Part shown: one piece after another, positions 1,819 to 1,916 of the stretch
Position numbering within the stretch: the first letter of the stretch is position 1
Layout of the letters: each line of letters opens with the position of its first letter
Assembly (NCBI RefSeq): GCF_003334405.1
Contig: NZ_QOWM01000004.1
Reading direction: 5' to 3' (one strand)
Source of the DNA: Escherichia coli
GTDB taxonomy: Bacteria > Pseudomonadota > Gammaproteobacteria > Enterobacterales > Enterobacteriaceae
DNA: 64,000 nt
Notes under the pieces: generated by a model
What the model saw: only the letters and a program-made list of their open reading frames with translations
Databases searched by the model: none
What the model was told of the DNA's origin: nothing
Program-made: the position numbers and the translations under genes

Positions 1819-1916
1819 CCTGATGCGCTACGCTTATCAGGCCTACATTTTCTCCGCAATATATTGAATTTGCGCGGTTTGTAGGCCGGATAAGGCGTTC
1901 ACGCCGCATCCGGCAT
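1819..1916. repeat. REP/BIME unit: two inverted REPs flanking a conserved CTGCAATATATTGAAT core (RIP-like, possible IHF site)
   Basis: GCCTGATGCGCTACGCTTATCAGGCCTAC … GTAGGCCGGATAAGGCG…ACGCCGCATCCGGCA read directly; near-identical copies at 18523 and 43850. Confidence 0.8.

What the first reader, a model, noticed from the sequence alone, without database searches (positions are those of the whole stretch)
1819..1916. Three near-identical ~100-bp REP-core-REP units downstream of uvrB, rhlE and ybiT
Copies at 1819-1916, 18523-18621 and 43850-43948 share the same left REP, a conserved CTGCAATATATTGAAT core and the same right REP, differing only in short linkers. All three sit immediately 3' of plus-strand genes. 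The core resembles the IHF-binding centre of RIP-type BIMEs, so these may act as nucleoid or terminator/mRNA-stability elements.
Basis: partly seen in the sequence, partly recalled or inferred. Interest (0 to 1): 0.3.

Follow-up and report, generated by a model that had tools for sequence, protein, structure and literature searches.

The report
Three known BIME-1 (RIP) repeats
The three ~100-bp repeats are real, but they are ordinary copies of a repeat family known in E. coli since the early 1990s (BIME-1, also called RIP or RIB): two REP hairpins flanking a conserved IHF-site linker, here lying between convergent genes.

Summary
Observation confirmed. The copies at 1819-1916, 18523-18621 and 43850-43948 are 86-90% identical to each other. 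Each consists of a Z1-type REP, a 34-35-bp L linker (C[C/T]GCAATATATTGAAT) and a Y-type REP, which is the published definition of BIME-1.

- The repeat unit is longer, about 152 bp. It has a 24-bp left flank and a ~30-bp right flank that are imperfect inverted repeats of each other.
- Each copy lies between convergent genes (uvrB/ybhK, rhlE/ybiA, ybiT/ybiU), so it is 3' of genes on both strands.
- A fourth, diverged copy lies on the minus strand at 31860-31967.
- None of the copies has a U-tract terminator. Published Rho-termination maps place termination beyond copies 1 and 3.

The IHF-consensus match (ATTCAATATATTG, minus strand, 8 of 9 specified positions) is weak evidence on its own. IHF binding rests on the literature for the class, because no per-site data could be retrieved. 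Rfam files the linker as the sRNA family ES036/CssrF.

The exact linker core with REPs occurs only in Escherichia and Pseudocitrobacter. Novelty: already known.

Side result from relatives, not from these three copies: about a third are bracketed by 13-29-bp direct repeats of the local terminator hairpin, and two occupied/empty site pairs were resolved cleanly.

The parts
1794..1945 (+). BIME-1 copy 1, full unit (left flank, Z1 REP, L linker, Y REP, right flank), between uvrB (stop at 1780) and ybhK (minus strand, stop at 1972)
   Evidence: Boundaries come from the family consensus and from the positions of flanking direct repeats in relatives.
1818..1846 (+). Copy 1 Z1-type REP, GCCTGATGCGCTACGCTTATCAGGCCTAC. 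It contains the natural IS621 target ATCAGGCCTAC.
1847..1880 (+). Copy 1 L linker. The Rfam ES036/CssrF match lies at 1839-1880 on the minus strand.
1857..1869 (-). Copy 1 IHF-consensus-like site, ATTCAATATATTG (one mismatch to WATCAANNNNTTR)
1881..1915 (+). Copy 1 Y-type REP, GTAGGCCGGATAAGGCGTTCACGCCGCATCCGGCA
18498..18651 (+). BIME-1 copy 2, full unit, between rhlE (stop at 18469) and ybiA (minus strand, stop at 18701)
18522..18550 (+). Copy 2 Z1-type REP
18551..18585 (+). Copy 2 L linker. The Rfam ES036/CssrF match lies at 18543-18585 on the minus strand (43.3 bits, gathering score 37.6).
18561..18573 (-). Copy 2 IHF-consensus-like site, ATTCAATATATTG
18586..18620 (+). Copy 2 Y-type REP. 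Its reverse complement is identical to the published TGCCGGATGCGGCGTAAACGCCTTATCCGGCCTAC.
43825..43977 (+). BIME-1 copy 3, full unit, between ybiT (stop at 43788) and ybiU (minus strand, stop at 44029)
43849..43877 (+). Copy 3 Z1-type REP. IS621 is inserted at its ATCAGGC-CT-AC in other E. coli strains.
43878..43912 (+). Copy 3 L linker. The Rfam ES036/CssrF match lies at 43870-43912 on the minus strand.
43888..43900 (-). Copy 3 IHF-consensus-like site, ATTCAATATATTG
43913..43947 (+). Copy 3 Y-type REP (variant CATCAGGCA)
31860..31967 (-). No IHF-consensus match within one mismatch.
18476..18496 (.). GC-rich hairpin ATGCCGGGCTATGCCCGGCAT directly left of copy 2. It has no U-tract on either strand.
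43797..43825 (.). GC-rich hairpin CCGTCACCCCGATACTGTCGGGGTGACGG directly left of copy 3
1948..1964 (.). Hairpin CCGGAATTTTCCTTCGG directly right of copy 1. The Escherichia E69 lineage carries a second copy of it on the left side of the element.

Best explanation
The three units are canonical members of the BIME-1 family of E. coli repeated extragenic DNA, also called RIP or RIB. Each is a compound, imperfect palindrome of about 152 bp with five parts: a 24-bp left flank, a Z1 REP, a 34-35-bp L linker, a Y REP and a ~30-bp right flank.

Shown here:
- the architecture and the family membership;
- the position between convergent genes, at the 3' ends of transcription units;
- long residence at the same sites, since copies 1 and 3 are also present in other Escherichia species;
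- the absence of an intrinsic terminator or a promoter-like site inside the elements.

Inferred from the literature on the class:
- At the DNA level, IHF binds the L linker and bends it sharply between the two REPs.
- At the RNA level, the elements are transcribed from either strand as part of long 3' UTRs. Transcription of this kind is stopped by Rho further downstream, inside the opposing gene. The REP hairpins, or the whole folded unit, then act as barriers to 3'-to-5' exonucleases and so set the stable mRNA end.

The elements are dispensable relics of a once-mobile unit that the host tolerates, and possibly uses, in convergent intergenic gaps.
For: Architecture:
- Z1, L and Y are in register in all three copies.
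- This matches the published BIME-1 definition and the published REP sequences.
- A family consensus of 49 copies gives the same five-part unit.
- In relatives, flanking direct repeats end 23-25 nt before Z1 and start 27-31 nt after Y, which fixes the unit boundaries.

IHF:
- ATTCAATATATTG lies on the minus strand of each copy.
- The literature states that the BIME-1 L linker frequently carries an IHF site, and that IHF interacts specifically with RIBs located at the 3' ends of transcription units.

Context:
- All three copies lie between convergent genes.
- Among relatives, 20 sites are convergent, 18 co-directional (9 in each orientation) and 1 divergent.

RNA:
- Both strands of each unit fold well below shuffled controls, z = -3.5 to -7.6.
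- No hairpin plus U-tract and no sigma-70-like site lies inside the elements.
- Published Rho-termination regions lie at 815186(-), which is window 1419, antisense to uvrB (Rho score 7.6), and at 857953(+), which is window 44186, antisense to ybiU (Rho score 7.0). Both are beyond copies 1 and 3 in the direction of transcription.
- REPs are described as protecting the 3' ends of Rho-terminated transcripts.

Age:
- Copy 1 is at the orthologous site in E. albertii and two divergent Escherichia lineages.
- Copy 3 is at the orthologous site in Escherichia sp. E1V33.
Against: - No IHF occupancy data for these three sites could be retrieved.
- The consensus match has a mismatch at position 2. Matches with at most one mismatch are common, with 65 in this window, so sequence alone is weak evidence.
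- No curated Term-seq 3' end lies inside copies 1-3 in Adams 2021. Low expression and multi-mapping reads in repeats could hide such ends.
- The Rho-score positions come from 800-nt comparison windows, so they are coarse.
- There is no compensatory covariation in any helix. The RNAalifold covariation term is -0.41 kcal/mol, and the flank helix equals its shuffle mean. Selection on RNA structure is therefore not shown.
- Natural strains carry disrupted or missing versions: IS621 insertion, a 73-bp internal deletion, and replacement of the region in O157:H7. Any function is therefore dispensable.
Confidence: 0.85

Rival explanations
1. The elements are purely selfish or neutral DNA. They would be decaying copies of a small mobile element that accumulate in convergent intergenic gaps because insertions there do no harm, with no host function at the DNA or RNA level.
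For: - No covariation in any helix.
- Many decay and disruption variants exist at the same loci: Y-REP deletions (L015, L062), a 73-bp deletion (L069) and IS621 insertions.
- Presence/absence polymorphism occurs at other loci.
- The flanks resemble terminal inverted repeats, and many relatives have flanking direct repeats.
- The exact linker core is restricted to Escherichia and Pseudocitrobacter.
- Only 1 of 39 classified sites is between divergent genes, which purifying selection against promoter disruption would produce.
Against: - Copies 1 and 3 have stayed at the same sites across Escherichia species. Copy 1 looks about as conserved as the flanking genes, which are 82-87% identical to E. 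albertii.
- The L core remains recognisable in copies that were not selected by it.
- The literature reports specific IHF binding for the class.
- This reading is compatible with the family assignment. It disputes only the function.
Confidence: 0.3
2. The conserved core is an independent small-RNA gene, Rfam ES036/CssrF, transcribed from the minus strand.
For: - Rfam RF02751 matches all three cores on the minus strand above the gathering score (41.6-43.4 bits against 37.6).
- cssrF was detected as a ~290-nt northern band in Shigella, between dacB and yhbZ.
Against: - The 43-nt model is simply the L linker plus the first bases of the Z1 REP.
- The motif is multicopy, with a median of 15 detectable copies per E. 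coli genome.
- No promoter-like site lies within 300 bp on either strand.
- The Shigella band is about 290 nt, far longer than the model. That fits a 3'-UTR or processing fragment that contains a BIME-1.
Confidence: 0.05
3. The units are bidirectional intrinsic transcription terminators for the convergent gene pairs.
For: - They contain strong GC-rich hairpins on both strands.
- They sit at the 3' ends of genes.
- REPs are listed in the literature as sometimes acting in termination or attenuation.
Against: - No hairpin followed by a T-run lies inside any copy.
- Bicyclomycin-sensitive termination regions lie beyond copies 1 and 3, and beyond the fourth copy, so transcripts cross the elements.
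- A Term-seq 3' end for the glnHPQ transcript lies 66 nt past the fourth copy, at a separate hairpin.
Confidence: 0.05
4. The units are DNA gyrase binding sites or topological insulators, as shown for BIME-2.
For: - The Y REP, the type gyrase cuts preferentially, is present in each copy.
- The position between convergent genes is where positive supercoils accumulate.
- BIMEs have been proposed as topological domain barriers.
Against: - Published gyrase enrichment and cleavage concern BIME-2 arrays (Y plus Z2 with a short linker). BIME-1 does not occur in the text of the genome-wide cleavage study.
- These are single Z1-L-Y units.
Confidence: 0.1

Closest known systems
BIME-1, also called RIP (repetitive IHF-binding palindromic element) or RIB (reiterative ihf BIME), of E. 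coli
   Same: - One Z1 and one Y REP in inverse orientation.
- A long conserved L linker with an IHF-type site.
- A single unit, extragenic, at the 3' ends of transcription units.
- All defining sequence features were tested and met.
   Different: Nothing of substance. The conserved outer flanks, which make the unit about 152 bp rather than about 100 bp, correspond to what I recall as the external A and B motifs of the original BIME description. That is from memory; I could not read the source.
BIME-2 (Y plus Z2 REPs with a short linker, in tandem arrays)
   Same: Built from REPs in alternating orientation and located outside genes. One example lies in this window at 23818-23894 and matches Rfam naRNA4 at 78 bits.
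   Different: BIME-2 has a Z2 REP instead of Z1, a short S linker without an IHF site, tandem amplification, and documented gyrase cleavage. The three units here have none of these.
Rfam RF02751, ES036 (CssrF) sRNA
   Same: The model consensus is the reverse complement of the L linker plus the first bases of the Z1 REP. All three copies score above the gathering threshold.
   Different: The family is filed as an sRNA gene. Here the match is the multicopy linker of a DNA repeat, with no promoter-like site nearby.
REPINs (REP doublets forming hairpins) mobilised by RAYT / TnpA-REP transposases
   Same: Two inverted REPs carrying the GTAG tag, separated by a spacer and able to fold into one long hairpin.
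   Different: The two REPs are of different types (Z1 and Y), and the spacer is long, conserved and carries an IHF-type site. No RAYT gene is annotated in the first 50 kb of the window. IS200/IS605-type transposition leaves no target duplication (from my own knowledge), whereas a third of the relatives show long flanking direct repeats.
Correia elements of Neisseria (MITEs with a central IHF site)
   Same: Small, palindrome-like intergenic repeats of about 100-150 bp with terminal inverted repeats and a central IHF-binding site. They are often co-transcribed with neighbouring genes.
   Different: The sequences are unrelated and Correia elements contain no REP units. They have short fixed target duplications, and some carry promoters (partly from my own knowledge; one search supports the IHF site and the promoters).

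Membership tests
BIME-1 / RIP / RIB | One Z1-type and one Y-type REP in inverse orientation, with the CTAC and GTAG ends facing the linker | tested here: met
   Consensus scans find Z1 on the plus strand and Y on the minus strand in each copy. The sequences are identical or nearly identical to the published REP sequences. Definition. The labels Y, Z1 and Z2 for those three published sequences are from my own knowledge.
BIME-1 / RIP / RIB | A long, well-conserved L linker between the two REPs | tested here: met
   The linkers are 34-35 bp. Their central 20 nt are invariant apart from C/T at two positions across the three copies. The same linker is found in 49 relatives, though those were selected by the exact core. 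It is also recognisable in copies not selected by the core.
BIME-1 / RIP / RIB | An IHF consensus sequence inside L | tested here: met
   ATTCAATATATTG on the minus strand matches WATCAANNNNTTR with one mismatch in each copy. This is weak alone, because 65 sites with at most one mismatch occur in the window.
BIME-1 / RIP / RIB | IHF protein actually binds the element | not testable with these tools
   Only class-level literature statements are available. Supplements with per-site ChIP or footprint data were not held or did not list these genes.
BIME-1 / RIP / RIB | Occurs as a single unit, not as a tandem array | tested here: met
   No adjacent REPs or further linker copies lie next to any of the three units.
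BIME-1 / RIP / RIB | [quoted passage not shown] | tested here: met
   All three copies lie between the stop codons of convergent genes. Among relatives, 38 of 39 classified sites face at least one gene's 3' end.
Rfam ES036 (CssrF) sRNA | Covariance-model score at or above the gathering threshold | tested here: met
   41.6-43.4 bits against a threshold of 37.6, on the minus strand, for all three copies.
Rfam ES036 (CssrF) sRNA | An independently transcribed small RNA with its own promoter and defined ends | tested here: inconclusive
   No sigma-70-like site within 300 bp on either strand, and no curated 3' ends in the elements. No RNA data for these loci were examined directly.
Intrinsic (Rho-independent) terminator | A GC-rich hairpin followed immediately by a U-tract | tested here: not met
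   The scans found no such site inside any copy. The only terminator-like sites lie outside the elements.
MITE (miniature inverted-repeat transposable element) | Terminal inverted repeats | tested here: inconclusive
   The outer flanks are imperfectly complementary in the consensus: 63.5% of cells pair in register against 34-43% when slid. They pair in the predicted folds. No transposase that recognises them is known.
MITE (miniature inverted-repeat transposable element) | Flanking target-site duplication | tested here: not met
   The three window copies have no flanking direct repeat (scores 5-5.5, equal to the null mean). By contrast, 16 of 45 relatives do, and two occupied/empty site pairs show a single copy of the repeat at the empty site.
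BIME-2 | A Z2-type REP paired with Y, a short S linker, tandem copies | tested here: not met
   The only Z2 REP in the window is at 23818-23856. The three units carry Z1 and a 34-35-bp linker.

The most novel reading that the evidence does not exclude
BIME-1 is, or was, a discrete mobile unit of about 150 bp with MITE-like ends (GAGAnTGATGAC ... CAGCAATCTGA). It integrates at intrinsic-terminator hairpins and duplicates the whole hairpin, leaving a target duplication of variable length (13-29 bp) set by the structure of the target rather than by a fixed stagger.

On this reading the three window copies are old insertions that have since lost one hairpin copy. Copy 1 still has both hairpin copies in the Escherichia E69 lineage.

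[quoted passage not shown] The main paper on REP/BIME mobility does not mention flanking duplications. I could not read the older BIME papers, so the pattern may already have been described.
Probability: 0.35. Interest if true: 0.5.

Novelty: already known. Interest (0 to 1): 0.13.

Why it matters
For the finding itself, the value is correct annotation. These are textbook BIME-1/RIP repeats, not new regulators.

Practical points:
- The conserved unit is about 152 bp, not about 100 bp.
- It sits in the shared 3' region of convergent gene pairs, so it will be part of 3' UTRs on both strands.
- Rfam reports its linker as an sRNA (ES036/CssrF), which can mislead automated annotation.
- Each Z1 REP carries the natural IS621 bridge-recombinase target ATCAGGCCTAC. 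Copy 3 is actually occupied by IS621 in other strains.

If the side observation holds up, it would give BIME-1 a concrete insertion signature. It would also explain why these repeats sit between stop codons and terminators.

Tried and rejected
- **Per-site IHF data.** Prieto 2012 has no supplement held. The supplements of Kasho 2021 and of the 2026 YgfZ paper do not list these genes. Boccard and Prentki 1993 is not held.
- **Per-site 3' ends.** Dar and Sorek 2018 and the 3'-UTR valve paper have no supplements held. Adams 2021 lists no curated 3' end inside copies 1-3.
- **RefSeq annotation.** The MG1655 RefSeq record shows no repeat features for the region.
- **Empty-site search for copies 2 and 3.** Junction queries 64 nt long, joining the sequences just outside the 152-bp unit, found nothing in 5,426 complete E. 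coli genomes. No precise absence allele with those boundaries exists in that collection.
- **Covariation as evidence for a selected RNA structure.** None was found, either in the REP/linker hairpin or in the flank helix.
- **Intrinsic terminators or promoters inside the units.** None.
- **Clustering of three or four copies in 64 kb.** A K-12 derivative has 23 detectable linker copies in 4.5 Mb, so about 0.3 are expected per window. Seeing three is unusual for one window, but across about 70 windows it is not remarkable. I do not treat it as a feature.
- **The 38558 match to the core (3 mismatches).** This is a chance match inside opgE.
- **Literature searches.** Searches for ES036 and for BIME-1 with duplication or terminator returned nothing relevant. 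The cap on papers stopped me from reading Di Nocera 2013 and Nunvar 2010.

Full report
**Source and observation**

The window is an E. coli K-12-like chromosome. Window position x corresponds to NC_000913.3 position x + 813767. The first 50 kb differ from MG1655 at 14 positions, none of them inside the elements.

- The left REP is identical in all three.
- The core CTGCAATATATTGAAT is exact in copies 2 and 3. Copy 1 has one mismatch.
- The core is far more frequent than chance: 4 matches with up to 3 mismatches, against 0.51 expected.

**Anatomy**

Scans with REP consensus sequences show that each unit has three parts:
- a Z1-type REP (GCCTGATGCGCTACGCTTATCAGGCCTAC);
- a linker of 34-35 bp;
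- a Y-type REP in the opposite orientation (GTAGGCCGGATAAGGCGTTxACGCCGCATCCGGCA).

Both REPs match the REP query sequences printed in Durrant et al. 2024.

Conservation does not stop at the REPs. The three copies also share about 24 bp upstream (cTGATGACAAAyGcAAAAyw) and about 30 bp downstream (AACAAaGCGCAyTTGTCAGCAATyTGAG). Over these ~152-155 bp they are 81-85% identical.

One scan of 100,044 species genomes for the exact core gave 70 matches.
- About 60 were flanked by Z1 and Y REPs. All of these were in Escherichia or Pseudocitrobacter, apart from two contigs that look like E. coli contamination.
- Eight matches in unrelated taxa had no REPs and lie within the number expected by chance.

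An alignment of 49 of these copies gives this consensus: TGAGnnTGATGACAAACGCAAnATT, then Z1, then AnnnTTTCTGCAATATATTGAATTTGCAnnATTTT, then Y, then TGAACAAAGCGCACTTTGTCAGCAATCTGA.

The two outer flanks are imperfect inverted repeats of each other. In register, 63.5% of cells pair, against 34-43% when the partner is slid. This equals the shuffle mean, so it reflects the ancestral consensus and is not maintained pairing.

A fourth, diverged unit (77-79% identical, linker GGCAACTTATTAAAATTGCA) lies on the minus strand at 31860-31967, between glnQ and ybiO.

**Context**

All three copies lie between the stop codons of convergent genes: uvrB and ybhK, rhlE and ybiA, ybiT and ybiU. They are therefore 3' of genes on both strands, not only of plus-strand genes.

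A crude ORF-based classification of the relatives gave 20 convergent sites, 18 co-directional sites (9 in each orientation of the element) and 1 divergent site. [quoted passage not shown] The absence of an orientation preference fits an element that works, or is tolerated, symmetrically.

**Identity**

Ton-Hoang et al. [quoted passage not shown] Every sequence feature of that definition was tested and met.

The IHF consensus WATCAANNNNTTR is matched with one mismatch by ATTCAATATATTG on the minus strand of each copy. There are 65 sites with at most one mismatch in the window, so this alone says little. IHF binding rests on the literature for the class, and I could not obtain occupancy data for these sites.

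Rfam reports the linker, on the minus strand, as the sRNA family ES036/CssrF at 41.6-43.4 bits against a gathering score of 37.6. The 43-nt model is simply the reverse complement of the linker plus the first bases of Z1. The linker has a median of 15 detectable copies per E. coli genome, with 23 in a K-12 derivative. The Shigella cssrF transcript was a ~290-nt band at another locus. I read the Rfam family as a fragment of BIME-1-containing transcripts, not as an sRNA gene at these loci.

**How it most likely works**

Shown:
- The single strands of each 150-nt unit fold far better than shuffles on both strands (z -3.5 to -7.6). The outer flanks pair with each other. The two REPs fold either separately or against each other.
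- No hairpin plus U-tract and no sigma-70-like site lies inside or next to the elements.

From published data:
- Adams et al. 2021 list bicyclomycin-sensitive termination regions at 815186(-), antisense to uvrB, and at 857953(+), antisense to ybiU.
- These lie beyond copies 1 and 3 in the direction of ybhK and ybiT transcription respectively.
- A third region lies at 845551(-), just past the fourth copy, with a Term-seq 3' end at 845561(-) on a separate hairpin.
- Transcripts therefore cross the elements and are stopped by Rho further on.

Inferred from the REP literature: after Rho termination, exonucleases trim back to the REP hairpins, which stabilise the mRNA end. On DNA, IHF bends the linker.

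Not shown:
- There is no curated 3' end inside copies 1-3.
- There is no covariation.
- Natural alleles disrupt or lack the elements (next section).

**Variation and age**

Copy 1 is at the orthologous site in E. albertii and in two divergent Escherichia lineages. Copy 3 is at the orthologous site in Escherichia sp. E1V33 with the Y REP partly deleted. These are therefore old residents.

Within E. coli, the loci are polymorphic.
- At ybiT/ybiU, only 2,687 of 5,426 genomes align over at least 80% of the region.
- One allele there has a 73-bp deletion between ATCAGGC direct repeats, leaving one hybrid REP.
- Another has IS621 inserted at ATCAGGC-CT-AC of the Z1 REP, which is exactly the natural target reported for the bridge-RNA recombinase.
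- In O157:H7, the sequence after the rhlE stop codon is replaced by an espX2 region, and copy 2 is absent.
- Junction queries for a precise absence of copies 2 and 3 found nothing.

**Side observation in relatives**

In 16 of 45 relatives, the sequences just outside the unit are direct repeats scoring above the 99th percentile of a cross-locus null, where 0.45 would be expected.

In 13 loci examined in detail:
- the repeats are 13-29 bp, and one imperfect alignment reaches 34 bp;
- eleven of them fold into a GC-rich hairpin (-5 to -18 kcal/mol);
- in most loci they end 23-25 nt before Z1 and begin 27-31 nt after Y.

In the loci inspected, the left copy is preceded by an A-tract, and in most the right copy is followed by a T-rich stretch. 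That is the arrangement of a bidirectional terminator split around the element.

Two occupied/empty pairs are clean.
- At tcdA/mltA, K-12 equals strain 97-3250 plus 162 bp, made of the element and a second copy of GAGGTTAyCCCTCACCCT. About half of sampled E. coli genomes are of each type.
- At metE/ysgA, E. albertii has the element between two copies of the metE terminator hairpin. In E. coli, 3,537 of 5,426 genomes match the single-hairpin model without a break.

At the uvrB/ybhK locus, the E69 lineage has a 20-bp second copy of the ybhK-side hairpin to the left of the element, which K-12 lacks. The three window copies themselves have no such repeats.

Occupancy at tcdA/mltA is shared with other Escherichia species (L033, L063, L051), so the empty E. 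coli alleles there may be excisions between the repeats rather than unfilled sites. The direction of change is not settled.

A 2011 review says REPs do not display MITE signatures, and the main REP/BIME mobility paper does not mention flanking duplications. The older BIME papers could not be read, so I do not claim this is new.

**Verdict**

The finding is a correct recognition of a known repeat family. Novelty: already known. Interest is low. The refinements above are the useful output: the true extent of the unit, the convergent context, the fourth copy, the lack of a terminator, and the Rfam label. The flanking terminator-hairpin repeats in relatives are the only lead worth following.

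Noticed in passing
Related loci L007, L011, L017, L021, L022, L028, L029, L030, L033, L041, L042, L043, L055; occupied/empty pairs L074 against L073 and L007 against L075: About a third of BIME-1 relatives (16 of 45) are bracketed by direct repeats of 13-29 bp. These are usually the local terminator hairpin, and they sit at consistent distances from the REPs. At tcdA/mltA and metE/ysgA, the empty site carries a single copy of the repeat. The three window copies lack such repeats.
   Followed up: partly
window 31860-31967 (minus strand): A fourth, diverged BIME-1-like unit lies between glnQ and ybiO. Its linker has lost the IHF-consensus match. A published Term-seq 3' end (845561 minus = window 31794) lies 66 nt past it, on a separate hairpin.
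   Followed up: partly
window 23818-23894: A BIME-2-type pair (Z2 REP and Y REP with a short linker) lies between ybiE/zbiJ and ybiJ. Rfam matches it as naRNA4 (RF02564) at 78.4 bits on the minus strand.
   Followed up: no
L070, L071, L072 (the ybiT-ybiU locus of E. coli strains WWCOL-315 and M10); corresponds to window 43867-43877: IS621 (IS110 family, bridge-RNA recombinase) is inserted in the Z1 REP of copy 3, at ATCAGGC-CT-AC with the CT core on both sides. Five of 30 evenly spaced hits showed the same alignment break at this point, so the allele may be common. All three window copies carry this target sequence.
   Followed up: partly
L069 (E. coli RM19259); corresponds to window 43867-43939: A 73-bp deletion between two ATCAGGC direct repeats removes half of Z1, the linker and most of Y. 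It leaves one hybrid REP hairpin inside intact outer flanks.
   Followed up: yes
L051, L052, L053 (Escherichia sp. MOD1-EC7003): Tandem arrays of BIME-1-like units occur here, with a period of 115 bp in L052/L053 and 162 bp including a flank in L051. BIME-1 is defined as occurring in single copies, so this lineage has amplified it.
   Followed up: no
L068 (E. coli O157:H7 TX 376-2); corresponds to window 18470 onward: Immediately after the rhlE stop codon, the K-12 sequence (hairpin, BIME-1 copy 2, ybiA) is replaced by AT-rich DNA leading into the effector gene espX2.
   Followed up: no
L030 (E. coli strain E69) against window 1780-1800: At the uvrB-ybhK locus, this lineage has an extra 20 bp (CCGGAATGTTTTTCTGGTTT) to the left of the element. 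It is a second copy of the hairpin that K-12 has only on the right (window 1948-1964).
   Followed up: yes
window 1419 and 44186 (NC_000913.3 815186 minus and 857953 plus): Published bicyclomycin-sensitive (Rho) termination regions lie inside uvrB (antisense) and ybiU (antisense). Convergent transcription therefore runs across copies 1 and 3 into the opposing gene.
   Followed up: partly
window 3145-3289 (plus strand): A molybdenum-cofactor riboswitch (RF01055, 103.6 bits) lies upstream of moaA. It overlaps the annotated moaA start at 3277.
   Followed up: no
L014 (MAG labelled uncultured Bacteroides) and L024 (262-bp contig of Desulfosporosinus sp. OT): Both carry a complete Escherichia-type Z1-L-Y unit. 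They look like enterobacterial contamination of those assemblies.
   Followed up: no
Genome-contig scan: The exact linker core with REPs was found in Escherichia species and in three Pseudocitrobacter genomes. It was not found in Salmonella, Citrobacter, Klebsiella or Enterobacter representatives. The main E. coli representative genome did not appear in the list at all, so the collection or the listing may be incomplete.
   Followed up: no
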